A stretch of DNA of 62,576 nucleotides, the filler included, from Kipferlia bialata (Eukaryota): the NCBI GenBank assembly GCA_003568945.1. It is 3 parts of 3 records of this genome, joined end to end, with 100 filler letters (N's around TTAATTAATTAA, not from the genome) between each part and the next. Parts side by side here need not be neighbours in the genome. Positions count along the whole stretch, not along the records: positions 41,821 to 62,576 come from BDIP01000355.1; 2 more parts are not named here. One strand, 5' to 3'. Shown here one piece after another: positions 20,116 through 62,576 of this stretch. Under the pieces are notes generated by a model. The model searched no databases. It saw only the letters and a list, made by a program, of their open reading frames with translations, and was not told the origin of the DNA. How positions within the stretch are numbered: the first letter of the stretch is position 1; each line of letters starts with the position of its first letter. The translations under genes and the position numbers were made by a program.

Positions 20116-20151
<36 letters not shown>

Positions 20152-20845
20152 CCCGTGGCGGTGGTCGCGGTGGTCGCGCCTGGGGGTGAGGGGGTATTTA
20201 TATATATACGTGAGAATTATATAATAACGCCTGGAGGTAAGAGATATATACCTGAGAATTTTATATATATAGTACTACTCATGTACGTATATCATGTACC
20301 TCCCACCACTCCTGTCATTCCCCCTGTGCCTGGAGTCCTGGTTCCTGCCATTGCGCCTGGGGGGTAAGAGGGATGTAGAAACAAACACACACATAAATAT
20401 ATATATATGTATATACATATATATCCGAGTATATATGTACCTGTACCCGCCCTCGTTGTGCCCCCTGCTTTGATATATAGAATGGTATATATATATACTC
20501 ATATAGTATATATATACATATGTCTCTATATATATACCTGTACCCGCCCTCGTTGTGCCCCCTGCTCTCCCTGTCGTGCTTGTAGTGCTGGTAGTCACTG
20601 CCAGACGGCATGTCCATCCTGATATCAGTATATATATAGTGTATATGTAATATATTATATACATGTTGTATAGTGCATGCAGTGATAACATAGTATTCTA
20701 TAGAGAGTATCTGTAGTGCTGGTAGTCACTTCACTGGACCCCAACTAGTTGGTGTCATATATTCAATATACTATCAGTATAAACACTATATACCTGTTCA
20801 CCCCCGTGTGCCCGTATGACTGGACCACTGGGCCAGTGACTGATA
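20019..20845 (-). CDS. 3' end of a gene with an R/D/G/H-rich low-complexity C-terminus (possibly an RNA-processing factor)
   Basis: Small exons give MDMPSGSDYQHYKHDRESRGHNEGGYR, RNGRNQDSRHRGNDRSGGR and RDHRDHRHGDSDHQPKYNRRR* (stop 20019-20021). The gene is truncated by the scaffold end. Confidence 0.55.
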
Positions 20846-20945
20846 NNNNNNNNNNNNNNNNNNNNNNNNNNNNNNNNNNNNNNNNNNNNTTAATTAATTA
20901 ANNNNNNNNNNNNNNNNNNNNNNNNNNNNNNNNNNNNNNNNNNNN
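20846..20945. other. Artificial scaffold linker (N44-TTAATTAATTAA-N44)
   Basis: A six-frame stop palindrome at 20890-20901 is centred in exactly 100 nt. An identical structure occurs at 41721-41820. Confidence 0.97.
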
Positions 20946-21032
20946 CACGGTTTTTTTTATTCCCCCCACCCCCCCCCCCCCCCCCGCGCGCGCTCCACCC
21001 TCTCTCTCTCACACACTCTCTGTCTCACCCAG

Positions 21033-21501
21033 TACCAGTCACAGTATGGTGGCAGTGGAGTGATTGAGGTGTCCCTCTGTGCCAGGGGTCAGCATGAGTC
21101 AGACACGGTGGGGCTGGAGAGTGACACGCCCTTGAAGGTACTCTCTCCCTATCTCGACATACTTCTTTGTATCTGTGGAGAGATTAGTTGCCTCTTCTCT
21201 CTCCCTCTCTCTCCCTCCCCCTTACCCCCCAGGCCCCCCCTTCCTCTGACAGGGACTACAGAGGGGTCATGGTCATCAATGCAGCAGGTGGGGTTACACA
21301 GCTCTTGCCACACATACACGTACCCTACTCTCTTGCCCACCTCTCTCTCCATACCCTTACCTATAGGCACCCACCAGATCTCTGTCCAGCACCTGGGTCC
21401 CAGCCACTTGACACTGGTACCATCGGTCAGGTAGTGTATGCATATATGTCTCGCTCTCTCTCTGACGTCACCCTAGGAGTGACCCCTCCCTCACTGTGGG
21501 C

Positions 21502-21543
<42 letters not shown>

Positions 21544-22293
21544 GTATATATACCCTCACCCCTAGGAGCGATGCCTCCCTGACTGTAGCCATGGATACTC
21601 TCTCTCTCTCTCTATCTGTCTATCTATCTATATATTCTGACCTTAGAAGTGACCCCTCCCTGACCGTGGCCATGGGCACTGTGGACCATGCCCGCACTGT
21701 CTATGCAGTCCATAGGGAGAGAGAGAAGGTGGTGGTCAGGGGGGTGGTCTCTGATGTGTTTGGTGAGTGCAGAGTTTACCTACATATATGTGACATATAG
21801 TCTACATTGTAGTATTCACAAAGCTAGGGTCTTACATCAGGCAACACGGCCTCTGCCAGACAGTGCAACATGGGCCAGACACCCATATCCATAGCCTTGT
21901 CTGCCCCATGGGTCAGTGGGGGGGTCAGGGTACGCAGTCTCTGTACTATAGGCAGTATAGATACTATATGTGACTGTGTGCATGTTCACAAGGACAAATT
22001 GCATTTGTCATACTCTGGATATTTCACTCTCACCCCCAGAGCAAGAAGACCCCCCAGGGCCTGGTATTTGGGAGACTAGGGGAGACCGAGTGCTTCAGAG
22101 GTGAGGCATTATATACACTCAGCCCCTCCCTCCCCCCTCACACATACACACCCATCCTCACTCGCCCTTACCCACACCCAGTGAATGGCTATGACACCTT
22201 CCGAGAGGCTGTGACTGGGCGTGTTACATTCAGTGACACCTCCCTGCACATGGACTCCCTGCCCATACTCCAACTGCCTCAGGTATGTGTACT

Positions 22294-22328
<35 letters not shown>

Positions 22329-37200: not shown

Positions 37201-38271
37201 AAGGTACTCTATATATATATATACACATATATATATATATGTTCAAATAGTATAGTGTCCTAGTAATACTATTTTGGTGTTGCTCTGGTTGTTGTGGCAG
37301 TGGCCAAGCAGATGGCAAGGTATTACATATCACACACACATATATATATATATGTCTACGTAAACGAAATTTACTGGCAATGTTTTAGTAATATGTGCCT
37401 CTGGTGGTTGTGGCCAAGGAGATGGGAAGGCATTATCCAATGTAGATACATTGAATTTGAATACAAGCAGACTAAATACCCTGCATATGGTTCAATGCTT
37501 GTTTCAGTGGCCAAGGAGATGGCAAGGTAGTATTATATGGTATATCCACCCCCCCACCATCATGTTTGACACATTTCCAACACACAATACCATCATATAC
37601 AGTGTTACCTTACTTACCATTTATAGACTGACTTCAGCACCATCCGTCGAGACATGTGGTCCACCCTGCAAGACACGCCCATTCAGCCAAACATCGTGTA
37701 TGTGCATATACATATGTGTGTGTGTACGATCATGATCATATCTATGTACTGCCAAAACTAGTATGTAATTATCTAACCTCTCAGCTACGACCTCGTCAGG
37801 AACGCCCCGCAGTCATTCCACGACAGTATGGCTAGAAAGGTGGGTAGAATATGATACTGCTTCACCTCTCATTATTTTTGTGTCGTCTCACCCAGGACCT
37901 TCTACCCTCCCTATACAGGACTGGTGCCTATGGGGTCACCCCTGCCCTGCAACTAGACCCTTTATTGAGCCAGATGGTGTACACTGTGTACAATGCACTG
38001 GTCATTGCGTCAGACACACAGGGGGACACGGGGGAGAGGTAGTATATAGATATGTATATATATATATATATATATATAACTATACTTTACATACTGAATA
38101 CTCATATATTATGTATAATATACGTATTGATTGCATCAGACACACCGGGGGACACGTCGGAGAGGTATAGTACTACACTGTTCTCATGATATCTACGTAC
38201 ATACGGACATAGACACTAATATATATATATATATATATATATATGCTGTGACCCTTTCCATAGGGCATATT

Positions 38272-38309
<38 letters not shown>

Positions 38310-41052
38310 TGTGACCCTAACCATAGGGCCTCTGAGCTCATGGAGTCCCTGGACATATGGGCAGACGCAGACACTAGCATGTCCACTGATACTGGGACAC
38401 CTGAGGCTCAGCAGGTACTATATTGAAGTAATTATCCATATGTCTGATTCATCATCAATATTCCTGGCAGTGTGTTTGCTTCATAGGAAACTCACCTGCT
38501 AGGTCACCACCCTTCTCTCTTCCGTCCTGACGTCGGTGAATGCATTTAACCTCGACATAGAGGTCTCGACAAGACACCCTGTGTTGGAGGCGCAACGGCC
38601 AACGGTTACCGCGCCTAGTTCCCCCGGTACCACTTTCTCTGGTCCTCAGAACAGAGAGAACCAAGAGAAGCAGACGGTGGTATCCGAACTGCCTGCAAAG
38701 ACTAGGAGGTCCATATCCCCAGATACCACACATAGTGACAGAGACCGAAAGCTGACTCTTTCACCCAGTAGCAAGAGAAGGCCAGTTCCTGATCCGGCTT
38801 CCATGAGGCAGAGGGAGAGAGAGGGGCAGAGAAGGCAAGTGCCTGAGGTTAGGGTGTCTGGAAGGGAGAGGGAGAGAGAGAGAAAGGGTGGTGAGCGAGA
38901 CGACAGAGGCCATTCGTTAGATCGTGATAGTGTGCCACATAGAGAATATCCTGGGGAAAGAAGAGGGTATCGGGGAGAGGAAAGATACGGAGACCAGTAT
39001 AGGCGTCGTGCATACAGGTGAGTATAGTCCTCAAGTGTAGAGAGTAAAGAATAGTAGTGTTTGAGTACTATACACCTGATTATTGTATACTTACCACTAG
39101 CCCCTCTCCCGAGAGAGAGAGAGAAATTGAGAGGGACAGAGAGAGAGACACTCGGAGACGGGATCTGTTCCCAGAGCGCAGGGAGAGGGAGAGGGAAGCT
39201 GCGCTGCGTGACAGAGAAAGAGAGAGGGAAATGGATAGAGAGAGGGAGCGAGCTAAGAAGAGGGCTGGAACAGGTATAGTATGTATATGTTATACATATG
39301 TACTTATACAATCAAGGATTAATGGTGTGTGCTTGTGATTGACCCTTGCTTCCATGCCATGCTTGCTAACCCTACTAATGTGTAGTATGCTATGTATATG
39401 TGATATTATAGATCATATATATATATATATGAGTGTGTATGTAATCTCACTGTCAGGCCAATATATGTATATACTTATACTATATATACTTATATTTATA
39501 ACTCACTGTCAGGTCTGTCTTCCAACCTTGGTCATATATTTTTGTATATGTATAGTATATTCTATGTATTATAGTATATTCTATGTAGTAACTGACTCTC
39601 AGGTCTGTTTGCCAACCTTGGCGCCAAATCAGCAGAGGCACCTAGGGACAGAGAGGCAGCCAGCAGTATGGAGAGAGAGAGGGAGAGAGAGAGACCTGCC
39701 ATGGACTGGCCCAGTGTGCCTCCTGGGAGGTACTTAAATAGTATACTTATACTATTATTCTACTATTATTCTACTATTATTCATGTATGATTCCTCCCGT
39801 GATTTACTATCATATATTTCTGTGTGTGTCTTCATGTTTATATCTAGGAACCCGTTAGTGTAGCTCCTGGGAGGTACATCAAATAGTATACTTCTCTTCA
39901 CATATATATATACTGAAGACAGATATATTGGTATCTGACAGTAGGAACCCCTTCTCTGGCAAACCAGACCCTAGATATGGACAGGAACCAGGTACTCTCT
40001 CTCTCTCTATGTGTATGCATATATATGACCAGGTACTGTGTTTGTTGTGTGAGCCATATGGGGATGGCATACATGCAGTTAATGGGTATATTAATATATA
40101 TATATGTACAAATGAGTGTTAGTGTTACTTTAACAATACTTGATTTGATACGGACAGGAATGAGACAGTACCCGCTAGTAGATACAGTGTATATTTAGAC
40201 ACTTTTCTGATATCAGAGAGCCAGAGAGAGAAGGAGAGACGTGAACAGCGGGAGAGAGAACTCGAGGAGGCCATGGCCAGACGGGAGGGGAGGTACATTG
40301 AATGCAATATTACCATGATACTAAACACATTAAGTACAATTGAGTGTGTTATTAGTATATTTGTGTATATGGAGGCCATGGCCAGACGGGAGGGGGGGTG
40401 TACTGCACATAATCCATACTATTCATGTCATATACTATTCGTTCTTTTTTCTATTTAGGTAGCCAATGTTTTGGAATCCCGCAGACAATGCTACTCAAAC
40501 TCCTGTTGGCTCTGTTGCATATATTTCATGTCATATACTATTAGGCCTAGTATTTAGGTTGGGATTATATATAGGATACCTCACAATGATACTCAAATAC
40601 CTATTGGCTTTGTTGTTTTAGTGCTCCTCTCACTCAACAGACCATTGTCACCCAAACTAGAGCCAGTATATATATGTATATATTAGTATATGTGTCTGTA
40701 TATATATATATATGAATATATATTTTGTGACAATGACCCCGACACAGGGTATTGTCACCCAAACTAGAGCCAGATGGAGGGACAGGGACTCAAGGCACTC
40801 AAGGTCCCGTCACTGGTGATAACCTCCTAGGTACTTCCAGATACATCTTACTGTATATATGATATGTATATGTTTGAAGAGCCATAGAGAGATAGCCTCA
40901 AGGCACTGGCATATCCCATATCCCATATCCCATCCAGTCACTGCTGATAACCTCCTGGATACATTGACTGATACTTATGAGTACATGTTTGTATTCAACC
41001 TCTCACCCCAGATGGCGTCAGTGACGATGACGAGATTGAGTGGTGTGAGTAA
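31242..41052 (+). CDS. Large multi-exon protein with a probable divergent cyclin fold and an RE/RD/RS-rich C-terminal region
   Basis: About 30 small exons form a largely phase-consistent chain. The segment ELEMNRTLEYRLVCLAASLSIKILAEATGGTISPRAYALSALMLHRLYTTATLASVPPAIGAGAAAAIAIK (34620-35526) resembles a cyclin box. RE/RD-rich exons lie at 38503-39272. The gene ends DGVSDDDEIEWCE* (TAA 41050-41052). The gene structure is well supported; the cyclin call is tentative. Confidence 0.55.
36964..37003 (+). repeat. (TGACT)8 tandem repeat immediately upstream of an acceptor AG
   Basis: acctgacttgacttgac...ttcag|GTTGC. Confidence 0.9.
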
Positions 41053-43634: not shown

Positions 43635-44441
43635 TTAGTAGTCAATCTGGGCGAGGTTGCAGAATATCTCCTCCAGTGGCTCTGAAGATACACTCCAGAG
43701 CACTCCAGTCTCTCCCTCTCCCTCTCTCTCTCCCTCTCTCTCTCCCTCACCGCAGAGTAGAGCATATAGAGTGGAGAGAGTAGCATCAGGTGCCAGTCTA
43801 AGGGTGACACACACTCTCTCTCCCCCTCTCTCTGTCTCTCTCTCCCTCTCCTCTGATACTACAGGGCAGGTGGCTCTTATCCTGTCTTAGATAGAGAGAA
43901 TAGAGAGAGACGGATAGATAGAGAGAGCTAGATAGAATAGAGATATCGTGTCAACGCCAAGATAGAGGTATATGATATATGGTATCATATAGCCTCTACA
44001 TTATTGGTTAATGGAGCATGTTACCTCTCTGCTAGTGTATGTACCGCTCTCCCACCGCCATCACCAGAGTGACTGCGAAGCTGCACAGCGACACCATTGG
44101 CAGCCTGAGGGGGTTAGCAGTTGTAGTGATGTATGTAATATATACTATACATATATACTGCAGTAATGTATATATGAAACCATAACTCATATATAGCAGT
44201 CACCTGTCTCTTCAGTACTGACACCCGTGCCTCTATATACACCATCCAGTATGCATAGATACCAATATATACATAATATATACAACACACACACACACGT
44301 GTACTCACACACACATATTTATATATATATATATATATATACACTAGTACCTGTCTCTTGAGCTCCAGCACTGACCCCTGTGCCACCAGCTGACCCTTCC
44401 TAAGGACACCACATCTGAGGTGAGGATAGACAGATACACTA

Positions 44442-44490
<49 letters not shown>

Positions 44491-46484
44491 CATATTACAC
44501 TATACCAGTTTCTCAGGACACCGCACCTGAGGTCAGGTAGGTATATGCTATTATGGGAGAATGTATAACACTCTATTACACTGCAACCTTACATCTAATT
44601 ATAGAACTCTATAGTACCTGTCTGCCAGCGCCTCTGCCTCCCCCATCGAGTGTGTAGTATCGTTATACATACACACATATATGAATCAATACACACACAC
44701 ATATGAATATATATTCATTAATGTATTATACCTGTCAGCCAGTGCCTCTGCCTCCCCCATCGAGTGTGTGGTGAGTACCACAGTGAGTGACGCAGCGGCC
44801 TCTAGCAGACCAGTCCACACGCCCTGTCTGGTGGCTACATCTAGGCCGGTGGTGGGCTGAGGGTAAGTGTATGACCCATGATACATAGGCACACACAGTA
44901 AGTAATTAATGTAACTAGTACTGGGATGCCTAGTGGTTTAGAGAACAGTAAGAGTGATACAAAACACAAGTCATATGCGGTATATATACAAGGTGTGTAT
45001 TATTTCACCCTGTCTGGTGGCTACATCTAGGCTATGCCCATCTCTCTCTCTCTCTCTCTCAATTCCAGTATATATACAGATACACAATATCAAGTATATG
45101 TACATGTATGCACACACACATATACATGATATACTATGAATACCTCATCTGCTAGGAGTATGGACAGAACTAGGTATATATGATATATATGCGCAAATAA
45201 ATAAATATAAAGTATATATATATATTTAATATATACAATATATACCTCATCAGCCAGGAGGATGGACCTGGCCCCTAGGACAGCCATGCCCATCCCTCTC
45301 TCTCTCTATCCCTCTCCGTTCTAAGTATATATAAGTATATATAAGTATTTTTGTATGAATATATACTACTATGTATGAATACCTCGTCAGCCAGGAGTAT
45401 GGACCTGGCCCCTAGCACAGCCATGCCCAGAGACATCCTGCGTCTCATGCCACCAGACAGCTCACCTGGGGTGGGGAAATGAGTGGATACAGTATACACA
45501 GCATAATATACGTGATAACAAGCTATATATATGGAGAGACATATCTTACGCCTCATGCCGCCTGACAGTTCACCTGGGGTGGGGATAGTATATTTAGTAT
45601 ATATATATATATATAATGCAGTATTTGATTGTAACTGTATTATATGGTACCTGCCCTCTTGTGTGCATGCTGCACAAGACCCACTGTGCCAAGGGCCTGC
45701 TGCACATGTACCTCTCTCTCTCTCTCTCTCCCACGCACGTCAGCGATCAGGTCCATGTGCTGCCTGGTATTAAGGATATGGCTACTGCTACGTAAAATAC
45801 AGTATAGTGCAACCGCTTAATTTACGGTCATGATACTACACGACAGTAGCGTAACCGCGTACCTCACTGTCATGTTGGGCCAGTAGAGGTCGTGCTGCGG
45901 CACACACACCACGTGGTCACTGACTATGGCTCTCTCTCTCTCCTGTCCCTCTCCCTCTGTCCTCTCTGCCCCTCCCTCCCTGTCAAACATGCACTGACCA
46001 CTGAGCATGCCCTTGCCACAGTCAGGGTGCAGGATACCTGTGATTAGATACGCACCCACACCCACACACACATATGTATATGTATATATACATATCCACA
46101 TGTACTATAGATATATACATGGAGTTAGACAGCAGTCCTGGCTTGTACATGTACATAATACACATGGATGTACAACTGAGGGATCTCCGTTACATACTAT
46201 TCTGTCACATATATATATCAACATGCCACACACCTGCTATACAGTAGATCAGCCTTGTCTTGCTAGCATAACAATAGCCTATATTACATATACTATATGT
46301 ACACATATATACATTGAATAGCCCATACTACGTATATCATATGTATACATATATACATTGAATAGCCTATACCACGTATATACTATATACAAACACAAAG
46401 ACGTACCTGTGATGCAGTTGATGAGGGTGGTCTTTCCGGCCCCATTGACACCCAGCAGTGCATATACTACATACATACACTATA

Positions 46485-46524
<40 letters not shown>

Positions 46525-49425
46525 ACATGCCTGTGATGCAGTTGATAAGGGTAGTCTTTCCAGCCCCATTCACGCCCAGCAGTGCATATACTACATACAT
46601 ACACTATAGGCATATATATATAGTATACATGCCTGTGATGCAATTAATCAGTGTTGTCTTTCCGGCCCCATTGACCCCCAGCAGTGCATAGACCTCACCC
46701 TGCCTCAGGGTCAGGGAGACACCACGCAGGGCCTAGGGGGTTAGATATACAGGGGTATATATATATATATGTATATATGGGTGACCAGGGAGACACTTCG
46801 GAGGGCCTGGGAATAAGGTAACCAAATGATGTATTGAATATATAATATGCATATCTTATACATATATATAGTGTCATTGATACCACGTAAGGTAAGGGAA
46901 AGATATCCATAGGAATAGAACGAGTGATGGATGTATGTCAACATATATATATACATAAGGTCAGATAGATGAACTTCAGGTATATATGTATATACCCATA
47001 TACCTTAGTTCCATTACTGTATGTGTGGTGGATGTCTGTCAGACTCAGACTGGCNNNNNNNNNNTCCATTACTGTATGTGTGGTGGATGTCTGTCAGACT
47101 CAGACTGGCATCTGATAGAGTACACGACACACAATATATATATATATATATATATGTATCTATGTCTATACATGCCTACCTTTGTGCCATTACTGTATGT
47201 GTGGTGGATGTCTGTCAGACTCAGACTGGCATCGGGTGCCATATCAGCCCCTGCCTCATCCCCGTACTCGTCTTGCTCACTCTCACTCTCACTGGCAATG
47301 GGTACAACTGACAGAAGGGCAGTATCCTCTGGAGTTCTAGTGGTTAGATGGTAACAGAGACACTTGGCCATCTAGATGATGTATGCATGTGAGTACATCT
47401 ACTCGAGAGTACCTTGCATCACCCCCACTGAATAGGCCAGCTACATATGCAGCTACACCCCTAACCACCCTGTGAGTGCCTCTGAGCACAGAAAGGGCAG
47501 TACCCCTCACACTCCCCGCCTAACGGTTAGGATGCCAACAAATAGTGTGGTCAGCAGTAGTATATATACTATATTGCACACCCTACCTGAATCAGGCATG
47601 CCCCGGCTAGATAGAGCACTATACCCACTACACACTGCATAGGAAGGTGATCTGTGGAGGATGGGTGTGACAACATGTCACAGAAGGCAAGAGGGGGGAA
47701 CAGGAACATGCCTAATTGTGAGGATGGTGTGTAGTGTCTATAATAGGAATGAATAGGAATATATTAGGACATTACATATGTCACAGAAGGGGGGGAAGAG
47801 GAATAACCTTGATTGTGAGGTTGCAAACAGACTGTAGAAGAGGAAACGGCATAATACCAGTACAAGTGTTCTATAAAGACAAAAACAGAAGACAAAGAAA
47901 CAGAATATATTGAGAAACTATTCTATCGACGCAAATATATATCCATAATACAGGTGAGTAGAGAGGTACAAACATGCTGACCTGCTGTAGGTGGGACAGA
48001 CATAATATAGTAATAAACAATGATGTTAATCGAAATATGTAATATAATATATATTGTATGTAATATATATGTAATATATATGACTATATATATGACACCA
48101 TGCTAACCTGCGGTAGGTGGGACAAAGACTCCCAGGACCAGGGAGCAGACTGAGGGGTCAGAAAGTGGATGAAACTTAAGATACTTATGGCTGGGTTCTA
48201 CAATATTTGTATAGAGAGAGAGAGAGGGAGATAAGGAGAGAGATGAAATACACACGAGACCAGGGGGCCCAATGGACATCAGAGAGTGTCTAACCTCAAT
48301 GAGGAAATGCGTATATACCCATATGCGTACCCATATACATACCCATATATGTGTATTTATGTACATATGTATATGTGTACATGCGTACCCATGAGTATAC
48401 TGGACACGATCGATGCAGTGGCCTGGCGCTTGAGGGTGACACCTTGGGGTGAGACTCTATATGACTATATATATATATATATAATACCTATATATATAAT
48501 ACTATACGGATAAATGATGTACCTACGAGTGCCCCACATGCCACACACCCCAGTATACCCAGCATGAATGACGTGAATATATATATATACTATATGGGTA
48601 CTATACATATTGATTCTCTATACAAATATGTGTACATATGTATATACCTACGAGTGCTCCGCATGCCACACACCCCAGGGTACCCAGCAGGAATGACGTG
48701 AAGGTCTGGAGCAGGTCCTCTGAGAACAGGGAGAGACCAAGGACAGAGCCTATCAGTACGGCGAGGAGGGAGACACAGAGACCTAGGTGTTAGTACATAG
48801 TGTGTATTAGTACATGTACATAGATTAGGGGGAGAGACCAAGGACAGAGCCTATCAGTACGGCGAGGAGAGAAACACACACCTTGTGGTTTTACGCAGTT
48901 ACAACATAGAGAGAGATGTTAGGGAGGGAGACACAGAGACCTAGAGGAAAGGCATACTTGAAAGATCATATTATATGTAAGGCACACTTAAAAGACTATA
49001 TAATATAGACTATGAGGACATCCAGTATCAGTATCATCATACTGACACTGATAATGCCATTTGTGATGTATGGTGATGTATATAGTGTGTAGTATGTATG
49101 TACTACAGGTCCTCACCCTGCACCTATGGTGTGTCTCTACGTATATATCACATGTACCACTGTTATATCTATATATATATACTCACTGAATAGGATACCC
49201 TGCACCCCAAAGTATGCAGGAGTAACAATATTCAGCACAATATATAATACAGGTGTATTAAGATGCCCATATCATTGTCCTCACCTTCCACCTATAGTAT
49301 GCAGAGACCATCAGGGTAGGTATCTACGTCTATATGATATATAACTATATATACTCACTCTATAGGAGTCTATCTATATATATACTCACGGTATCAGCAG
49401 GTACATTGCATATCTTTATCTATAC

Positions 49426-49472
<47 letters not shown>

Positions 49473-49905
49473 CATATATACCCTGTACACCATAGTATGC
49501 AGCCACCATGAGTGTATGGGATGCAGGGGACAGAGAGTGTATCCTGAGCAGTCTCACTCTGCCGTTCTCAAGGTCAGAGGCCAGGGAGACAGCAACCCTG
49601 GAGTAAGCAAATCTATATCTACATATATCTACATATATATATATATATATCACAATGTGTGTATGTGGGTGTAGGAGAGAGATATGCGTAGTGTAGTATA
49701 TGTATCGCATAGTATGAATATTCACATACCTTGGTATAAAGACGAGGGCCACGATAGGAGCCAGCAGCTCCGTCAATAGGGAGAGAAGGGCACCTGGGAT
49801 AAGGCCACAACATACCCACATATACACACATATATATATACAGCAATACAGATATCATACAGACATAAGGAGAGAAAGGCACCTGCGATTGGAGTGCAGA
49901 CACAT

Positions 49906-49940
<35 letters not shown>

Positions 49941-52260
49941 CATATGTATATATACACGTATATAGATATATACACATAAATAGCCGTACATAAAAGACAC
50001 ATACACACGTATATATTAATACAGAGATAGAGGTAGATGGAAATATATACTCAGATAACCGTATATATGAGCTTCTTTGTGGTGATTGGTATGAATAGTA
50101 TGACAGATCGGAGAACATGTTATCACTTAGAAGTTCGCATGGACATATACGCATATAGTATATGTAATATAGTAATGTATACATCCACTCTACTTGTGTC
50201 CATCGTATAGGTTGCATATGGTGTATATGTACCTAGTATATGTAGAATATATACAGTATATATATACATATATAGTATACATCCACTCTACCTGTGTCCA
50301 TCGTGTAGGAGGGATCTGCGAAGAAGGGGTACTGCTGGAATCTGAAGGTGAGTGTATTGACAACCCCATGTATGCGTGTGTACTGTTTCTGACCACACAC
50401 ATTCCTTTTTACTACGAATATAGTATAGTAACGAAAATGTGTCTGTTGCATTATATCATGTGTATATATCATGTAATATATATAATAGTACTTGTGTACC
50501 TGACCCACTTGGACGGGTTCTGGTATATATATTGAACACTTGCAGTATTCTATATGGCGTAAAATACTGTTGAGTATAGTAGTATTATGTATATATATAG
50601 AGCAATTACTCACCTGACCCCTAGGGACACGTCCATGCCATGGCCTGGGTGCATGCTCTGGGGGGTGAGACACTATGGTATATATGTATATATACATATA
50701 GTATATTGACACTATTGTATATGTATATATACATATAATATATTGAGTATTATGTATTAATGTAACATACACATATACGTATATATATATATGCACTTGG
50801 ATGCTCTGGGCGGGGGGAGACTGAGTGTACATATGTATATACAGGTGTGTACAGAGAGAGAGACACACTGAGGATATATATTATGAATAATGAGGGGCAA
50901 GACACTGTGGTATATGTATATACAGATGTGTACAGATAGAGAGAGACACTGAGGACTAGTATGATATATATATATATATATATATATTCATGTCATTGTG
51001 TGAATACGGATGATGGATGTAGGTACCTAGAACCCCCTGGCCATTGCTGTCAGTGAGGTATATATATACATATACTGCATATATAGATATATAGATACAA
51101 TATATATATATATATATATTCCTGGTACCGCCTGGCCATAGCTGTCTGTGTGGTATATATACGTATACTACATATATAGAATATATAATACTATATATAT
51201 ATATGACTCTGTGTGAATACTAATATTATATATAGTAGTACCTGGTACCCCCTGGCCATGGCTGTGTGGGTGGTGCGGGATATGTCGTCATTGACCATGC
51301 CGATCCAGAGCACTGGGACCCTAGGAGTTAGTATATGCATATATATATATTCACATAGTATATATAGTGCATGGTATATGTCTATGTTTTATGACCATGT
51401 CTATCCAGAGCACAGGCACTCTGGTGGTGAGTATATATATACATGGTGCCATACCATATACATATGTATATACCTAGTAGGCAGTGTCATATACACTGGC
51501 TCACACATGTCATGTCCGTGGCACCCCTGGTAGGTGGTGGCGATGGCAGTGACACGGAAACGACTGAAGGTGACAAGTATGAATATAGAGGCTCACTATA
51601 ATATGTGGAATTTATACCAATATGAAGTGAACTGTGTAAATGTGCCGAACACACGTGTATATACATGAATATGGGTGTGAAAGGAGTAACGGAACTTGCT
51701 GAGAGGGTACATACACGTAATAATACACAAATACGAATCTAATGTATATAATACGTACACGTAATCTGAGATGGACGCCTGGCCCTCCGAGTTGACCTGG
51801 ACAAGGTGGCTGGGTGTTAGATACACTATTACAATATCGGTATGTATTATAATATCTAGGTATAGTATATATATATATATATATATTTATAATACAGATG
51901 TATTGGTGAGTTGACCTGGACAAGGTGGCTGGATGTTAGGGAGTGAAGCATATTGCATATACCTATATACATATTCACAAAAATTAGGTGATGATACTAT
52001 ACTATACATTGGTGAGTTGACCTGGACTAGGTGGCTGGGAATTAGATGCATGGGTTTATTAGTGCCATATGCTAGAGTACAATTATACATTGCCATTAGC
52101 AAATGAACATAACATACCTTCCATTCTGTAGCTGGAGGTACACGTCTGAGTGGGGGTAGGCCCAGGGGGTCTGGTATAAGGGTGTAGAGAGAGAGAGAGA
52201 GAGAGAGAGAGTAGGCCCAGGGGGTCTGGTATAAGGGTGCAGAGAGAGAGAGAGGAGGGG

Positions 52261-52295
<35 letters not shown>

Positions 52296-52633
52296 GCCAT
52301 GTGGGTCTCAATCATATCCTGATCATCATATCCTGGTATTAAGGGTGCAGAGAGAGAGAGAGAGAGAGAGAGAGACAGCGTGCAAGAGTAGGCCTAGGGC
52401 GCCTGGCATTAGATAATGGGGTAGAGAAAGGTTGTCAGAGAGAAAGTGACAGAGAGACCCTCACCTGGGGTGTGTCTGGTATACATGTGTATATAAATAT
52501 ATGTGTATCACCTGGGGTGTGTTTGGCAGCCACGTGATATATATATATATATATGTATATATGAATATGTATCTATATCTATATACATATATATATGTAT
52601 ACATTAATCACCTGTGGTGTGTTTGGCAGCCAC

Positions 52634-52665
<32 letters not shown>

Positions 52666-55600
52666 GAATATATAACAATGTGTATATCTATATATACATG
52701 TATACCTATATATTTATATCACCTGGGGTGTGTTTGGCAGCCACGTGTGCACATATATATATCTATCTATCTATATCTATATCTATCTGTATATATACCA
52801 ATATATCACCTGGGGTGTGTTTGGCAGCCACGTGTGCATCCTGTATGCATAGTGGGAGAGATCAGCATCTGCCACTCCTGTCTCTCTCTCTCCCTCCCTC
52901 TCCCCCACTCCAGTCTCCCTCTCTCCCTCCCTCTCTCCCTCCGTAACAGAAGAGGGGTCAGGGTAGTCTAGGTACAGGGACTCAACTGATATCAGACATA
53001 TTTAAGCATTGTATACTCGATATATACATACATAAACACAGAGTGTATTCCCTATATAAGAAAATGCACAACTAAATGACACACATGGTAAATGCACCTA
53101 CATAGTTGGGCAGCACCCTCCTCATCTGCCTCATGGCCAGGTTATACCCATATGCATCGTTCTCGTAGCCAAAGTAGTCGTTGGAGCGCTGGATACTGTT
53201 GTTAGTGATATATATATACACTGTATATAGCGTATATACATATACGATACTGAATGAGTATTACTCATAGTCAAAGTAGTCGTTGGAAGGAATTAGAGCA
53301 GTATATGTATACATCTATATATGTATAGTATACACAGACCTCACTATATATGAGTATGTGTATATATGAATATGTAAATATATACTATATACCCACCTCA
53401 CAATGTCCCTGTGCATAACGTCCACTATATGGTATATATATCAAATCCACTCTCTAACAGAGAGTCTCTATATATTGCCCTGCATAAAAGTACTAGTACC
53501 TCACAATGTCCCTGTGCATGTGATCGACAGAGTCGTACGTGAATATGTCGATGGTGCTGTTAGAGATCCAGGGGTCGGCTGGGGGTCAGACAACAGAACT
53601 ACATGGTCCATGTAGTACATGGATGCATATACTAAACCATCTCATACTACTATTGTGTATGTAGATGAAAAAGAATTTGTCGATGGCGCTGTTGGAATAT
53701 ATATCAAGATAATGAAAGTGTCGGCTGGGGGTCAGACACATATATATGTGTGTATATGGGATATATATATGGGGTATGTGTGTATGCGATGCAGCTGCAG
53801 CTTAAGTAGATCATAGATCAGACACGGAACATAACAACACACAAACAGTGACATCGACAATAGAGACAAAAGAACAAGAAAAGAGGAGAGAAAAGACAAA
53901 AGAAAAGCACGACACACATGGGATGTTCCCTCCACCTTGCTCTATCTATATTTCTGGAAATACTGCATATAGTGTATATGGCATATATAATCTATAGTTA
54001 GACATGGAAGATAACTACATGCATACTCACCACTGCAGTTGGCCATGTAGTACTCACTACTGGTATTGCAGTCATCCCTGGGGTCAGGGGATTACTAATG
54101 TGTATATATACATATGTATATATACACATATGTATATAATATAGATATATGTATATACATATATACGATATTGTGTACTCACTGTTGGTGTTGCAGTCAT
54201 CCCTGAGGTCAGACACAGTGATCAAGAGAATCATAACACATATATACAAATATATAGCAGATGTATACTACTGTATATAATAGAATACCTATATGCACTG
54301 AACCTGGTTGAAGGTGTCATATAGTATACTATATACACCTCATTATAGTATTTATAGTATATAAAATATGGCTCATATACATACAACGCACCTGCACTGG
54401 ACCTGGTCGAAGGTGACAGGGTAGATATAGTATAATGAAAATACAATACCATATATACATATGTAGTCTAATATATATGGTGAATAGACACTTTAGTAAT
54501 TATTGTAGATATACCACGCATAAATATCTATATATATACAATAGCTACAACGCACCTGCACTGGACCTGGTCGAAGGTGTGGTTTCTGGTGTAGTGGTAG
54601 TATGGAGCCAGGGCATAGTTGCACTCAAACTGACAGTCATACACACTCTCCTCACAGTCGTCTCTGACGGCACTTACAAACCTAAGTTTTAGCAGCAATA
54701 TATACAAGTATTAGTAGTGTATATGTGTAGAGAGAGGTGTTACACGCTCTCCTCACAGTCGTCTCTCATGACACTGAAGAAGCTAGGTGTTAGCAATATA
54801 TACTATGAAGTAGTATATAGGTATAGAGAGAGAGGTGTTACACACTCTCCTCACAGTCGTCTCTGACGGCACTGAAGAAGCTAAGGGTCAGCAGCAATAT
54901 ATACTATGAATAATAATCATGAATAATAATCAGTAGTATGTATGTATAGAGAGAGCTGTTACACACTCTCCTGGCAGTCGTCTCTCATGACACTGAAGAA
55001 GCTAGGGTGAGACACACACTCCATAATATATGAAACATCAGTATACTATAACACTGAAATCGCTGAGGAAAATATATCGTAAGAGTATGTACAGTAGGTC
55101 CTAGACACGCCATAATGGAAGTCATACATACTGTCCTACACTTATATATATTCAAATATGAGAGAGGGTGTGCATGAATCTATGGTATGTATATACACAT
55201 ATAGACGGTCGTACCGTCTTCCCATGAAAGGCCAGAACCCTCTAGCATATAATAACGGTTCTTTACACATTTGTACACATATATGTATCTATGATATGTA
55301 TCTTGTTTGTACCGTCTTCCCATGAATGGCCAGAACCCTCTAGCATATATATATATTTATATATATATGTGTGTGGGTGTGTTACACATATAGATGGTCG
55401 TACCGTCTTCCCATGAATGGCCAGAACCCTCTGGTGTCCTCATCCTTGGGGTCGGGGTAGAGGACAGGGTCCTAGAGTGAGACGTGGCATACCAAGACAC
55501 AGAGTACATGATCGGGTACCGACACTGTCAAGTATATATATACACACACATTAACACACATATGGTATGCACATTCTCCTAATGTGTATCTATATATGAA

Positions 55601-57046
55601 TCATGTATGTATGTATATATGCATATATATATATGTGTATGTGGATATACCTTGTCCATGTACATGTTGTCCCAGTGTGCATCCAGTACATATGTATATA
55701 TCCATTTACATGCAAGTATATATATATAGTGAGATATATTAATATAACTATACTTGCCTTGTCCATGTACATGTTGTCCCAGTGTGCATCCAGTACACTC
55801 TGGTCAATGTACCCATTGCTGTTGTCGACTGGGGTGAGAAGTCTACATATATATAAATATATGTATTCAATATATGTATACTATATACGTTCCAAGTATA
55901 GCGAGAGGGAAACATGTGTACTAGATACATAACACCAAATAGCGACATATAATAGCGATGATTGATGTGTACCTAGGTATCCATCGCCCATCCAGCCGTA
56001 GGGTATGATGCTGTCAAGGTCTGAGGCAGAGCTACGCGATGGTGGCCACTCACCCTCCCTGCCCGCGTAGGAGTTGATGGCGCCCATGCTCTCATAGCCC
56101 AGGCTCGATACACCGAACTTATGGGTAAGAGATGTAATAGATGTAGACAATACAATGTGCTACACTTGTTATATCTTCAGAGTACTATATAAACTTCTAC
56201 TATCAACCATACTCTATTAGCTAATATGAAAATGAATATGTATGTGTATAGATTAGAGTGAGTGTGTATATATATGTGTGTGAATATACACTGGTACCTC
56301 TCCCAGCACTGTAGAGGGGTCATTAACGGTGTACGGGAACTGCCAGTTGACATCAAGGCCCTAAGGTGAGATAGTGACACTAGTAACAACTATAAATAGT
56401 ATTTATAGGTATACACATATATAAAGAATTATATATATATATAGAGAGAACTAGGACTCAGATCAGAGGAGTATCTCCCAGTTAACATCAAGGCCCTAAG
56501 GGTCAGATATATAACACAAACAACTACAAACACGGGAATATATGACACAGACTCATCTCAGAGTAGTATCATACTCAATGATCATGTATCATGTCAGATG
56601 AAAACCCATACGGGGAAATAGTCCCTGCTCAAGGAAACAGACACTGTATATATATTATATCTGTATGGGTACACATCCAGAATGGAACATTCTTACACGT
56701 GTATATATACCTCGTAGAGCAGATAGCTGTAGCAGGGATCGCTGGTCATGTAGACTCCGACATTGGTTCTGAAACAGTCGTTGGGTCTGGAGTCAGATAT
56801 ATATATATATGTAAGATATATATATTATATGATGAGACAGAGAGAGAGAGAGAGAGTATTTATGATGAAACAGTCACTGGGTCTAGGGTGAGGTGGATAC
56901 AAGATATGAATGTAAATATGTATATATGTGTATATAAATGGAAGGACAGAGGGAGAGATAGTAGCATAGTGTTGGTTCTGAAACAGTCACTGGGTCTGGA
57001 GTAAGATTATTATATATGTAAGATATATATATTATATGATGAGACA

Positions 57047-57088
<42 letters not shown>

Positions 57089-60000
57089 ACCTCTCATCGA
57101 GGCATGTGTCCATGTCTAGGTACCCGTACAGGGCACAACAGTCTAGACACTGGCTCTGTACCTATATGTCAGTATACAAATATGTGTATGTACATATATA
57201 GGTATATATATATGGGTGTGTGGGTGCACGTATATAGATATATGTCGAAGGAGTTAGTCTAGACACTGGCTCTGTACCTATATATGAGTCGTATACAGGG
57301 AGGGAGAGAGAGGGAGGTCGTAGGGTCATACAGTAGTCTGGGTCTATATGTGAGTGGCTTGCATTTAGATATATTTAGATACATATGTGTATATACGTAT
57401 CTAGAGAGAGAGAATATTAGAATCCATACAGTAGCCATCAGTCTATGGGTGAGCGGAGGATCAATAGGGAGACACTCTACAGCGCATATTATGGCAGGTG
57501 GCATACATGTACATACAAATACCTTTGTGTAGTTGGTACCACGGTGAGGTATGCATTCATATGTACACACACACATATATATATGTATATACCTCTGTGT
57601 AGTTGGTCTGGTACCATGTCTGGGAGAAACGCTCCAGAATGGGACCTGATGGATAAGGGAGAAGTGTATATATATGATATAGTAATACAATTACATAAAT
57701 ATATATAAGGGAGGAAATAGCACCTGAAGCAACCCACACCCAGGGTTGTATAATATCATATACGTGTACTGTATCTCATTAGATGTGAGTTACCGGTCCA
57801 TTATAAAGTTTGGATGTACTACGTGTGATATAGGCAGCAATTTGCTTGTATACTCAGAGTATACCTGTCTTATAGGATATATATAGGAAATATATAGGAT
57901 ATATAAATGTTGGATATATATAATATATAATACTATATATGTATATGTGACATATTAATGTATATGTAGGTATTATACCTGTCACAGCAACCAGGGCCGC
58001 ATTGATACAGAGCATATACATACACATATAGTATAATATATTACAAATATGGTGCATATACAAGTATATACATGCATGATACTCACAATAAGACACTAAT
58101 GCTAACACTAGTGTAAATATATATAACTATATATAATACAATATATACATACCTGTCACAGCCACCAGGGCGGCATTGATGCAGAGCAGCACAACAGCGA
58201 GTATCAGGTGCCTGAATACACCTGGGGTAAGATTAAGGGTGTCATATCAGAGACACACATATGGTAAATGTATGATGTAGTTACCTATACACTCATTCAG
58301 ACAGTTTACGAAACCACAGAATAGCATCCTGTCTACGTATAGTATAGCAGTCTATGTATATAGTACATATCCCCTACCATAGTCAAAACGGCTACTGGTG
58401 TAAATATGTGAATACATATATTGCATAATTATATTCATATATATTATGTATTGCAATACAGCACTCACCCACTCTGTCCCCTCTTCTCTTCCTATTGATA
58501 TATACAAATATATATGCACCATCACTTCAAATATACAGTATATGTGCATGTGTATACAGTACATTGACTCACCCATGCCACTCTGTGCCTGGTCCACTAG
58601 GAACGCCTTTCTGAACACACCCCACCCCCATCCCGAGAGTACTCTCTGCATCACACTCTGAGTGGCCTCAGTGCTGAGATCCTCAGTGACATCTGCTGTA
58701 GACGGGGTGTGTGTGGTTGAAGGTACACTCCTCTCTCCCTCTCCCTCTCCCTCTCCCTCTCCCTCTCCCTCTCCCTGTGTGTCTGTGTCTAGGTCATGTC
58801 CAACCATGGAGGTGAAGACATGCTCTAGAGAGGCCCTAGCGTAAGACATATATGATACACACTCACTATGTATAATAGTAGAGATGAACACATACTGCGA
58901 GAGAGGCCCTGAGGTTAGACTAGTACCCTAGCAGCGCACACAGTTACGATATAAATACGATATACTATCATTCAATATACTATAGCGGACAGTGTATACC
59001 CATAAGGTGAGATACCTCTCGATGAGAACCATATAGTATAACGTATATAGTGTATAGAGTGTATAGTATATAGTAAATAGTAAATAGTATGTACTATATA
59101 CTGTATATTCATAAGGTCAATGATACCTCTCGATGAGGAAGTCTGTCACATGTCCCTTACGCCTCTGCTCCTCAAGGTTCCTGGCCACCTATCGCGTAAG
59201 AAATTAAGAGCGTGGACTATCGAGAAAACACATAATGGCATAGCAATTGTGTACCATAGAGTAATATATATTAAATCCGCTATTGTTGATGCCACACATA
59301 TCAGCTCTCACTATATATCATGTATCATATATCATATATACCTGAGGTAGAAGGCGACCGTCCTCCTTGGGGACCGAGAGTGTCACGACATGCTGGGACA
59401 AGAGGGAGACAGAGGCAGCTGGGGCAACAGACCTATCAGTTAGATATATATATATAGAGAGAGCGAGAGAGAGAGGGAGAGAGACAGAGACAGAGGCAGC
59501 TGGGGCAACATACCTATCAGTTATATATATATATAGAGAGAGAGAGGGAGAGAGAGAGAGGCTGTGACAAGAGAGAGACAGAGGCACCAGAGCTACAGAC
59601 CTAAGTGTTTGGTATATATATATATATATATATATATAGAAAACATAGTCTATGGACACTCGAGTGAACATGGATAATACGGAATCACCACGCACCTCAC
59701 TGTATCCACCACAGCCTGACATACACCCTCTCCCCCTGTGTGCTGTGTGCTGTCTATGGATATATAGTATATTTAATATACATTACTATATATATATACA
59801 TTTCATTACTATATATATATATACATATGAATATATATGCACCGTACCGCACTGTATCCACCACAGCCTGACATACTCCCTCTCCCCCTGTGTGCTGTGT
59901 GCTGTCTATGGAAATATACATTACTATATATATATATTTATATTTCATTACTATATATATATATGTATATGAATATATATGCACCGTACCGCACTGTACC

Positions 60001-62340
60001 CACTACACTCTGGCACACACCCTCTCCCCCTGTGTGCTGTGTGCTGTCTATGGATATATACACACATACACACACATATATATGCACCGTACCTCACTGT
60101 ATCCACTACAGCCTGGCACACCCCCTCTCCCCCTGTGTGCTGTGTGCTGTCTATGGATATGGATATGGATATGGTCACAGTGTATCCACCATGTCTCTGC
60201 CTCAGGGCAAAGGAGGACCCAGTGTCTGAGGTTAGTGATAATATATATAGTACACACAATATATATAAACTACATGAGTCCACTGTCCATAGGGTAACGG
60301 ACATATACATACCATACCTTACTATAGGATGTATACTTTCCACAATGGATATATAGTATAACTGTTGGGAATAGTCTATAAAGATTGGTATACCTTGCTC
60401 GTACCCCTATGCAGATTGCTAGATATAATGTATACCATATAGATGTATATATAGACATACACTCACTTTGCTTTACATCCAATATACATATATACTTACA
60501 TATATATATGATACCTATCACGTGTCCTCTATGGAGGATGCTGGTCCAGACAGATGTACACTATACAATGTAAAGACATAGATTGTTTAGATACAATGTA
60601 TAGATAGAGATATAGTATAGAATATATACATGCCACTGTACAATGGTATACCTAGCACATGCCCTCTGTGCAGGATGCTAGACATTTACGCACTGCACTT
60701 TACATCCAATATTCATATATATATATATATATATAATACTGTAATACCTAGCACATGTCCCCTGTGGAGGATGCTGATCTCTGAGGCCAGGCGCTGGACC
60801 TAGTGAGTAAGAAGGTGTCAGTGCCATATATATATAGACTACCAATTACAAACAGTGTATGGTACACACATATGTATACATATACACATGTATTATTCAT
60901 ACCTCCCCCATGCTGTGTGACGTCAACAGACATTATACAAACACTATATGATAATACAATATATAATCACGTTCATATATGTATCTCAATGATATCCTCA
61001 CCTCCCCCATGCTGTGAGATGTCAACAGACACCCACTGCCCTGCTCCCTCAGAGAGGACATGTAGGACCTGGGGTGAGGGACATATATAGATGTGTGTGT
61101 GATATATGTATATACATGATTGTAGGGCATGGGGGGAGACGCTGTAAAACATATACGTATATGTATATATACTAGTGGATGTGTGGTCATGTAGGACCTA
61201 TGATGAGGGAAAAAGATACATATACAGGAGGATATACGAATATGTGAATGTATTTACACTGAAACTACTGGATATCGTGTGACTAGGACATAATTAGGGG
61301 GTATAGAGTATATACACATACCACACTGTCCTCTTCTTATGTATTTATATATTGATATTGTATGTATACTCACCACACTGCCCTCTTGGTAGCTGGGTCC
61401 AGACCCGTGGTGGGCTCATCAAGGAAGATGAGGCTGGGGGAGCCTGGTTGTTATTATGTATTATGTATATATATATATATATATACATAGATGCATACCC
61501 CCAGAGAGCTCATGGACCTAGGGGTGAAAGGCAAAAGAATGTAAACACATATATGGAGATGTACATGACGTGACAGCTCCTGGACCCAAGAGTGAATTAT
61601 ATAAGCATACGAGACAAGTATAGAAGTCTACTGCATACTATACTCTGTATATATATACATTAATTATATATTGAATCTTTCTGCTTCTGTGTGGTCTCAG
61701 TAGTCTCACTCCATACCTGTACTTATCTACACACATTTCCACATATGTTACTGATACACCACACTACCAAATAGTCAGACTATACATATCTACATATATA
61801 TATAAATATATTGGTATCTATATATGACTATGTATATGTGTACCTTTCTGCCCCTGTGCTGCAGCAGCCTCACCCCCTACACTTATAAATGACATAAACA
61901 TAAACTAATCAATTACATATTATACATTATACTAACTAGTATACCTTCCTGCCCCTGTGCTGCAGCAGCCTCACCCTCTTAACTACTATATAGTTATATA
62001 TATATTGATTCCTGTTATGTATACCTAGTACTCCCTCCATACCTTTCTGCCCCTATGCTGCAGCAGCCTCACCCCCTTTAGGATGGTGTGACAGACAGCA
62101 TCACGCTCAGCCTTAGAAGTCACACCACGGATCCTGCGGTTAGGTCAGAAGCAGTGTATACGCTAAATCCATAGAGAGCTACAGATACAATATATTAGAA
62201 TACATTCAATATTGAATTATCCTCAGTACACTCGATCGTGCGTGGGGGACATATCCGACGTACCTAAGCGCATTGATGACGTTCTGCTCGACTGAGAGGT
62301 CTACCCAAAGGTTCTCATTGAGCTGGGGGCATACACCTAC
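43635..62340 (-). CDS. ABCA: Full-size ABCA-subfamily transporter (partial NBD1, TMD/ectodomain, NBD2), many exons, 5'-truncated
   Basis: NBD1: [18 protein letters not shown] (about 62275-62337), [43 protein letters not shown]2: [23 protein letters not shown] (46732-46633), [59 protein letters not shown] and [13 protein letters not shown] (TAA 43635-43637). Confidence 0.93.
46407..46693 (-). repeat. Three tandem 61-nt copies of the Walker A exon end
   Basis: 46633-46693 (part of the real exon), 46531-46591 and 46407-46467 all translate to [20 protein letters not shown](G). Confidence 0.97.
59695..60155 (-). repeat. Donor-side exon-end array in ABCA (real exon end plus 3 copies, about 60 nt each)
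   Basis: [26 protein letters not shown] unit at about 60091-60155, 59990-60055, 59848-59911 and 59696-59760, separated by TA-rich spacers. Confidence 0.9.
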
Positions 62341-62576
62341 CGCGTAAGATTCAGATGGACACATGAACATATAGCAGTATCAGCATCAGCATCAGTACCG
62401 ATAGTAGCAGGGTAACAGTGGGAAAGTCACAATCGGAACAGTATTGATAGTAGCATTATAAGTTCATTAAATTATAGTATCACAAACAATAACATACCCA
62501 CACCCACCTATGTGTCTCTTGGCAAAGAACGTCTGGCAGCTATCGTGTAGATCATAACCCATGACCCTGACGCTTG

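What the first reader, a model, noticed from the sequence alone, without database searches (positions are those of the whole stretch)
46407..46732. Walker A triplet: 9 variable sites, all synonymous, with an identical non-coding spacer
Seen: the real exon reads GTC TAT GCA CTG CTG GGG GTC AAT GGG GCC GGA AAG ACA ACA CTG ATT AAT TGC ATC ACA G. Copy 2 has GTA..GGC GTG..GCT..ACT ACC CTT ATC AAC. Copy 3 has GTA..GGT GTC..GCC..ACC ACC CTC ATC AAC. All nine variable positions are silent third positions, and three of them show three different states. Copies 2 and 3 differ at 5 silent sites, yet about 30 nt of spacer before each (46468-46498 versus 46592-46622) is identical. The real exon and copy 2 end in a GC donor (gcatgt); only the last copy has canonical gtacgt. 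Inference: this is the clearest case of codon-aware divergence. Deleting between copy 1 and copy 3 would give an intact exon with a GT donor.
Basis: seen in the sequence. Interest (0 to 1): 0.85.

Follow-up and report, generated by a model that had tools for sequence, protein, structure and literature searches.

The report
Introns stacked with allele-like exon copies
In the single-celled eukaryote Kipferlia, many introns hold stacked spare copies of the neighbouring exon edge that the one transcript checked splices out, yet the copies differ mostly at silent codon positions, so they were likely picked up from other working versions of the same gene during recombination, which would be an undescribed way for introns to grow.

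Summary
The 3' end of an ABCA transporter's second Walker A exon occurs three times (plus a decayed fourth copy); eight differences inside the repeat are all silent, the ninth sits on its edge. An RNA-type contig carries pure copy 1, spliced at the GC donor; DNA contig depths fit one molecule with three copies and show no collapsed form. Active use is therefore not supported. The pattern is window-wide: 105 intronic copies of exon-end+donor or acceptor+exon-start, spaced about 106 nt, with pN/pS 0.21, below a dead-duplicate model (0 of 1,200 simulations), also in a galactokinase with no second copy found. Splice dinucleotides are kept in 98 of 105; none is a fresh identical duplicate. The near-identical spacer is exceptional, not typical. 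Best reading (0.6, inferred): copies were captured from diverged functional alleles by out-of-register recombination and are now passengers; this predicts at least about 17% silent diversity among Kipferlia bialata isolates, which I could not test. Single-locus donor arrays are known (human F7) and the scan met them before in animal genomes; a two-sided, many-gene, selection-marked version was not found in eight literature searches.

The parts
46633..46732 (-). Functional exon with Walker A of the second nucleotide-binding domain of an ABCA transporter; its last 58-61 nt are copy 1
   Evidence: Pfam ABC_tran; RNA-type contig identical over 46632-46734; paralogue alignment
46038..46632 (-). 595-nt GC-AG intron that holds copies 2, 3 and 4
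   Evidence: loose end of the RNA-type contig continues in the next exon; length and ends
46589..46632 (-). Spacer 1: GC donor, short TA run, shared spacer core
   Evidence: contiguous with copy 1 in one DNA contig 46593-46716
46531..46588 (-). Copy 2 (intronic): 8 silent differences from copy 1, followed by a GC donor
   Evidence: DNA contig 46531-46604 with 0 differences
46465..46530 (-). Spacer 2: GC donor, long TA run, same spacer core (1 mismatch in 40 against spacer 1)
   Evidence: DNA contig of spacer core running into a TA tract
46407..46464 (-). Copy 3 (intronic): 6 silent differences from copy 1, 5 from copy 2, followed by a GT donor
   Evidence: not covered, inferred from the double depth of the shared junction piece
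46234..46261 (-). Copy 4 (intronic, decayed; reads KTRLIYCIA against KTTLINCIT), followed by a GT donor
45863..46037 (-). Next exon (Q-loop region)
   Evidence: loose end
47004..47233 (-). Upstream exon end (47180) and its intronic copy with 2 silent changes; a 10-N gap lies in the array
   Evidence: the RNA-type contig uses the first copy
43635..62576 (-). Host ABCA gene (5' end beyond the window), 41 intronic copies counted
174..5551 (+). Same kind of arrays in a galactokinase gene, 18 copies, pN/pS 0.17
16983..29648 (.). Same kind of arrays in several further genes on both strands, 21 copies, pN/pS 0.21
31133..40958 (+). Same kind of arrays in a further gene, 25 copies, pN/pS 0.35

Best explanation
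The intron holds extra copies of the exon's end plus splice donor, the transcript contig uses only the first, and the copies were likely captured from other working alleles of the same gene by out-of-register recombination. Shown: the copies exist in DNA contigs, the first (GC) donor is spliced, and across the window such copies have diverged like protein-coding sequence although they are not in the reading frame now. Inferred: in a species with very diverse alleles, exons are the only well-matched stretches between homologues; a repair or crossover that leaves one chromosome inside the intron and resumes about 100 nt back on the other yields exon A + part of intron A + exon end B + intron B (or the mirror form at acceptors). 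Unequal exchange then lengthens the array, and conversion tracts that stop at the exon boundary swap the exon-like part while leaving the spacer, which would give three silent haplotypes around one spacer as at Walker A. Arrays survive because the splice sites nearest the exon body are used. After capture the copies decay slowly (about 0.04 per site at most). The copies would be passengers with no current function.
For: pN/pS 0.21 over 898 codons in 105 copies; 123 of 197 distinct changes silent against 0.27 (neutral, p 9e-26) or 0.42 (only functional copy selected, p 7e-9); intronic against intronic copies 0.28 (p 5e-8); replacements conservative (mean BLOSUM62 +0.16 against -0.46, p 0.002). 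Simulated dead duplicates under the same detection filter give 0.62-0.82; 0 of 1200 runs reach 0.21. Frame-free test: 144 of 263 mismatch spacings are multiples of 3. Splice dinucleotide kept in 98 of 105, more than one-sided decay allows (p 3e-4) and equal to the replacement rate, with a different intron flank: templates were genomic exon-intron junctions, not mRNA. 0 of 105 copies is identical in both exon part and 20-nt flank. Four-gamete violations in 2 of 7 arrays with four or more sequences. Galactokinase shows the signal and only 1 protein was returned for it, cluster size 1. All three Walker A copies carry this gene's A and T residues where two named paralogues have G and S/A. Crossovers prefer exons in a hypervariable fungus (PMC4209137, abstract); metamonads lack Ku70/80 and fornicates lack Rad51A (PMC8516963, passages).
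Against: No allele of this species was seen for certain; diversity, ploidy and sex of K. bialata were not tested. The second Walker A haplotype in the DNA run (9 differences in 77 nt, different intron, similar depth) may be an allele or a close paralogue. 20 of 105 copies are identical in the exon part where 11.5 are expected at uniform divergence. One gene block (31-41 kb) does not beat the one-sided model (ratio 0.35, p 0.13). Replacements are not significantly enriched at paralogue-variable residues (4 of 120 against 6 of 56, p 0.076). No enrichment of TA-like tracts at copy junctions (p 0.27) and no significant link to TATATA density (rho 0.54, n 7, p 0.22), so the break site is unexplained. 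The narrow spacing (median 106 nt; 3 of 105 under 79) is not explained by the model.
Confidence: 0.6

Rival explanations
1. The copies arose on the same chromosome as identical duplicates and stay protein-compatible because frequent contraction and conversion keep cycling them into the functional position (indirect selection).
For: Direct repeats 100 nt apart are natural recombination substrates; mosaic copies in 2 of 7 arrays; 20 of 105 copies identical in the exon part.
Against: My own balance argument (not run as a simulation): conversion inside one locus gives silent and replacement divergence of about the same size (mutation rate over conversion rate), so a ratio of 0.21 again needs high allelic diversity. 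No young duplicate with an identical flank among 105. No collapsed molecules in the DNA contigs.
Confidence: 0.14
2. The donors were close paralogues or homeologues (for example after a hybridisation) rather than alleles.
For: A second, about 88% identical Walker A exon with its own intron is present in the DNA run; ABCA is a multigene family here; two copy residues elsewhere match a paralogue residue.
Against: The two named paralogues are far too distant (52% identical to each other; different residues in this exon); the second haplotype has G where all three copies have A; galactokinase returned a single protein yet has 18 copies; arrays of up to seven different units need many donors.
Confidence: 0.12
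3. Active use: internal copies reach the mRNA, by alternative donors, template switching or programmed deletion between copies, and are selected directly.
For: Zero replacements in the three Walker A copies; donors intact; a deletion from copy 1 to copy 3 would keep the frame (sequence).
Against: RNA-type contig is pure copy 1 at both junctions seen; no joints; equal depth of copies 1 and 2. Only 14 of 60 donor-side copies have an AG near their outer edge, so they are not cassette exons. The annotated galactokinase contains all 10 exon-adjacent versions. Some copies carry stops, indels or lost splice sites.
Confidence: 0.07
4. Assembly artefact: reads from several haplotypes were strung in tandem.
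For: Short-read style assembly with gaps, one of them inside a neighbouring array; the DNA run may be the window's own source, so it is not independent; copy 3 was not covered.
Against: Copy 1 and spacer 1 lie in one contig, the spacer-to-mid-exon junction exists as its own contig at double depth, and depths run 1:1:2 as for one three-copy molecule. Junctions into the middle of an exon share only a few bases, too few for an assembler join.
Confidence: 0.05

Closest known systems
Human F7 intron 7 37-bp minisatellite (PMC1557585, abstract read)
   Same: First unit spans the exon-intron boundary; downstream donor copies stay silent and the most upstream donor is used.
   Different: One locus, identical pseudo-donors, donor side only. 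Here many genes, both donor and acceptor sides, about 106-nt units with long non-coding spacers, and copies marked by purifying selection on the protein.
Intron gain by tandem genomic duplication at AGGT (PMC3443670, passages read)
   Same: Short local duplication that copies a splice signal; exon ends here are AG in 38 of 44 donors and exon starts G in 26 of 32 acceptors.
   Different: That model duplicates exon sequence and creates a new intron; here the duplicate straddles an existing junction and enlarges an existing intron, and no identical fresh duplicate was seen.
Exon-biased crossing-over in hypervariable Schizophyllum commune (PMC4209137, abstract read)
   Same: Supplies the premise that recombination between very diverged alleles concentrates in exons.
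   Different: The abstract describes equal crossovers, not duplicated junctions; such diversity has not been shown for Kipferlia.
Tandem and mutually exclusive exon duplicates (recalled, no call)
   Same: Duplicates with a purifying-selection signature next to a functional exon.
   Different: Those are whole exons with both splice sites and appear in mRNA; these are half-exons with one splice site.
Recursive splicing at AG|GT ratchet points (recalled, no call)
   Same: Each Walker A unit ends in CAG followed by a donor and is intron-sized (102 and 124 nt), so stepwise removal is possible on paper.
   Different: Untested; would not explain silent-only change, and only 18 of 32 acceptor-side exons start with GT or GC.

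Membership tests
Splice-donor tandem array (F7 IVS7 type) | First unit spans the exon-intron boundary | tested here: met
Splice-donor tandem array (F7 IVS7 type) | Most upstream donor is the one used | tested here: met
   one RNA-type contig, two junctions; rare forms not visible
Splice-donor tandem array (F7 IVS7 type) | Near-identical minisatellite units | tested here: not met
   5-8 differences in 58 nt at Walker A; pS 0.21 overall; the Walker A triplet is not listed as an array by Tandem Repeats Finder
Splice-donor tandem array (F7 IVS7 type) | Copy number varies between individuals | not testable with these tools
   only one sample was listed
Intron gain by tandem genomic duplication | Duplicated segment is exonic and its two AGGT copies bound a new intron | tested here: not met
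   copies include an intron flank and lie inside a longer intron whose real acceptor is 369 nt beyond copy 3
Mutually exclusive or cassette exon duplicates | Each copy has its own acceptor and donor | tested here: not met
   AG near the outer edge in 14 of 60 donor-side copies; at Walker A an AG does precede copies 2 and 3
Mutually exclusive or cassette exon duplicates | Alternative copies occur in mRNA | tested here: inconclusive
   none in contigs, which drop rare forms
cDNA-templated (processed) insertion | Copy runs into the next exon without the intron | tested here: not met
   55 of 60 donor-side and 43 of 45 acceptor-side copies keep the splice dinucleotide and an intron-like flank
Recursive splicing | Intermediates joined at internal AG|GY points | not testable with these tools
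   no raw RNA reads were offered
ABCA transporter (host gene) | ABC ATPase motifs and similarity to ABCA proteins along two nucleotide-binding domains and a membrane region | tested here: met

The most novel reading that the evidence does not exclude
Kipferlia introns grow genome-wide by a dedicated recombination by-product: roughly 100-nt out-of-register joins between hyperdiverse homologues, in a lineage without Ku and Rad51A, stack allelic exon-intron junctions inside introns. One genome would then hold a fossil sample of the species' alleles, readable for population genetics without further isolates, and the same process could have seeded many of the lineage's 125,000 introns.
Probability: 0.4. 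Interest if true: 0.82.

Novelty: new variant of a known kind. Interest (0 to 1): 0.66.

Why it matters
Untranslated sequence should not remember the genetic code. Here more than a hundred intronic fragments in one 62-kb window do. If they are captured alleles, this is an undescribed route of intron growth, indirect evidence for recombination and extreme diversity in a free-living relative of Giardia, and a test case for how a short-intron spliceosome picks a weak GC donor over a downstream GT donor and the last of several intact acceptors. It bears on whether Kipferlia's many introns are ancestral or lineage-built, a question that the genome paper raises (PMC5874029). It also warns that gene predictors and read mappers meet decoy exon edges in this genome.

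Tried and rejected
No whole genome was held, so frequency outside this window is unknown. The run search listed no holder on record as RNA; one run was guessed as RNA. Contigs could be laid only on 46390-46760, so only two junctions were checked on RNA and copy 3 stayed uncovered (a hole, no evidence). A homologue search with the next exon found nothing (11 candidates, 0 scored), so the host protein itself was not retrieved. An automatic intron scan was unreliable and dropped; of 28 intron coordinates read by eye only 11 passed the GT/GC-AG check and only these were used. Breakage at TA microsatellites was tested twice without support. Enrichment of replacements at paralogue-variable residues was not significant, and 5 junctions were skipped for weak alignment. 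Cassette-exon, cDNA-capture and named-paralogue donors were considered and rejected. Reading copy 4 as an intron-less remnant running into the next exon was rejected by eye: beyond the GT only 7 of 15 bases match. Earlier-finding look-ups by place, by sequence and with the organism name gave nothing on this genome.

Full report
Setting. The window is several scaffolds joined end to end (N runs and linkers). A 51-aa exon of its first gene is 100% identical to a protein named galactokinase of Kipferlia bialata, and the best hits of the Walker A exon are two K. bialata ABCA transporters, so the DNA is from this free-living fornicate. The finding lies in a minus-strand ABCA gene that runs from beyond 62576 to a stop at 43635; the exon 46732-46633 encodes Walker A of the second nucleotide-binding domain.

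Observation. Anchored at the exon end, copies 2 and 3 align over 58 nt with 8 and 6 differences from copy 1 and 5 from each other, all silent third positions; three sites have three states. Eight of eight silent has probability 8e-5 under neutrality and 2e-3 if only copy 1 was selected. The spacers differ at 1 of 40 bases, less than the silent sites beside them (Fisher p 0.007 against 5 of 17). A fourth, decayed copy lies at 46261-46234 (20 of 28 matches, 0 of 1000 shuffles).

Reads. Two coded runs of one sample were listed, X1 (DNA, 0.97 of words) and X2 (guessed RNA, 0.15); X1 may be the window's own source. Laid on 46390-46760, X2 gave one 1563-nt contig identical to copy 1; its loose ends match the next exon and the first copy of the upstream exon, so the 595-nt GC-AG intron is removed from the first, GC donor. 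X1 gave 8 contigs: copy 1 with spacer 1 in one piece (depth 351), copy 2 (354), the piece shared by both spacer-to-copy junctions (697), and a spacer running into a TA tract (279). These depths fit one molecule with three copies; no joints were listed; copy 3 was not covered. X1 also holds a second version of the exon (9 differences in 77 nt, 4 of the 5 listed silent, one Ala to Gly; depth 425-500) with a different upstream intron. It shares 37 identical bases with this gene where the two named paralogues differ, so it is a closer paralogue or an allele; I cannot tell which.

The pattern is general. Self-comparison gave 185 ungapped repeat pairs in 79 families. Two forms dominate: exon end plus donor repeated downstream, and acceptor plus exon start repeated upstream. 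I framed 76 junctions by eye, chosen because a copy seemed present, so they are no random sample; all 10 galactokinase frames match the annotated protein and many ABCA frames match the paralogues. An anchored scan found 107 copies at 67 of the 76; 2 were dropped (one not anchored at the junction, one with an indel), leaving 105. Over 898 codons there are 148 silent and 85 replacement differences, pS 0.206, pN 0.043, ratio 0.21; of 197 distinct changes 123 are silent, against 0.27 expected for neutral change (p 9e-26) and 0.42 if only the functional copy were selected (p 7e-9). Intronic copies compared with each other give 0.28. Replacements are conservative (p 0.002) and one stop occurs. Simulated dead duplicates passed through the same filter give 0.62-0.82 and none of 1200 runs reaches 0.21. 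A test that needs no frame agrees: 144 of 263 mismatch spacings are multiples of three (pairs within arrays are not independent). By block the ratio is 0.17 (galactokinase), 0.21, 0.35 (not significant against the one-sided model, p 0.13) and 0.17 (ABCA; 0.21 without Walker A, p 1e-4). Old copies such as copy 4 fall below the scan's threshold, so the true mean ratio is somewhat higher.

What the templates were. The splice dinucleotide survives in 98 of 105 copies, above one-sided decay (p 3e-4) and in line with the replacement rate, while the intron flank falls to near background within 12-20 nt. So the templates were working genomic junctions, not mRNA. No copy is identical in both exon part and flank; in the five with a near-identical flank the exon part has 1-8 differences; against this, 20 copies are identical in the exon part where 11.5 are expected. 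Of 38 neighbouring spacer pairs 18 are recognisably related and differ at 120 of 967 bases; the Walker A pair is among the most alike. Two of 7 larger arrays break the four-gamete rule. Units are 106 nt apart at the median (10-90%: 89-160), somewhat longer than copy-free introns (median 82, range 54-118, n 11). A 24-nt copy of the last codons and stop of the ABCA gene lies 130 nt downstream, so the boundary of conserved sequence, not splicing as such, may be what is copied.

Mechanism. Most silent divergence (about 0.17 of 0.21) must have built up while the sequences were under protein-level selection. The transcript evidence says the internal copies are not used now, and known paralogues are ruled out as donors at Walker A because all three copies carry this gene's own residues; galactokinase has no second protein in the search. 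I therefore infer capture from diverged functional alleles: where only exons match well between homologues, a join from inside intron A back into exon B about 100 nt upstream gives these structures; unequal exchange extends arrays; conversion that ends at the exon boundary replaces the exon-like part and leaves the spacer. Conversion inside one locus without allelic diversity should give equal silent and replacement divergence (my argument, not simulated). Supporting context: crossovers favour exons in hypervariable Schizophyllum (PMC4209137, abstract); metamonads lack Ku70/80 and DNA-PKcs and fornicates lack Rad51A (PMC8516963, passages). Not supported: breakage at TA tracts. Unexplained: the tight spacing. 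Untested: allelic diversity, ploidy, rare isoforms, recursive splicing.

Comparison and novelty. It works like the human F7 intron 7 array in that the first donor wins (PMC1557585, abstract), but fails the near-identical-unit feature. It is not intron gain by AGGT duplication (PMC3443670, passages) nor cassette-exon duplication. Short direct repeats at intron borders are described (PMC11782384, abstract; 4-30 bp) but not codon-constrained copies. The K. bialata genome paper reports 124,912 introns and contains no occurrence of 'duplicat', 'heterozyg', 'ploid', 'allel' or 'paralog' in its main text (PMC5874029; passages and one methods section; supplements not read). Eight full-text searches listed no description of this pattern; I saw listings only for most hits, and the library lacks most subscription papers. 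Earlier scan notes report single-locus donor arrays in animals, one with a silent bias; these are unchecked leads, one of which pointed me to the F7 paper.

Verdict. Real; observation confirmed; active use not supported; the clearest instance of a window-wide architecture. New variant of a known kind, interest 0.66; best mechanism 0.6.

Noticed in passing
window 46038-46045 and 46632-46639 (minus): The exon end and the intron end share the same 8 bases (ATCACAG followed by G), a direct repeat at both borders of the GC-AG intron.
   Followed up: no
window 55758 and 55651 (minus): A second array in which the exon-adjacent donor is GC and an otherwise identical 40-nt copy downstream has GT.
   Followed up: partly
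window 43505-43528 and 43635-43658 (minus): The last seven codons and stop of the ABCA gene are repeated 130 nt downstream, outside any intron.
   Followed up: partly
window 17611-18972 (plus): One 84-nt exon is flanked by at least six acceptor-side and four or five donor-side copies, the largest array in the window.
   Followed up: partly
window 47055-47064: A 10-N gap with about 45 identical bases on both sides inside the upstream array; probably an unresolved contig overlap, so the copy number there is uncertain.
   Followed up: no
window 35929-35976 and 36048-36095 (plus): An acceptor-side copy only about 75% identical yet still in frame with mostly silent or conservative changes, like an orthologue from a sister lineage.
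   Followed up: partly
window 377-420 and 459-502 (plus): A galactokinase copy differs by a block of three adjacent residues (CSS against STC) with identical flanks.
   Followed up: no
window 21000-30500: Genes with GC-richer, TA-poor introns carry few copies (0.3-1.2 per kb against 2-4 elsewhere); the correlation over seven blocks was not significant.
   Followed up: partly
window 42309-43454 (plus): An intron-less 381-codon ORF without a significant Pfam match, next to the ABCA gene's 3' end.
   Followed up: no
window 20846-20945 and 41721-41820: N runs around a 12-base all-frame-stop linker: the window joins separate scaffolds, so neighbourhood across these points means nothing.
   Followed up: yes
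X1 contigs 5, 6 and 8 (on window 46640-46741): A second version of the Walker A exon with its own intron at similar depth; allele or close paralogue.
   Followed up: partly
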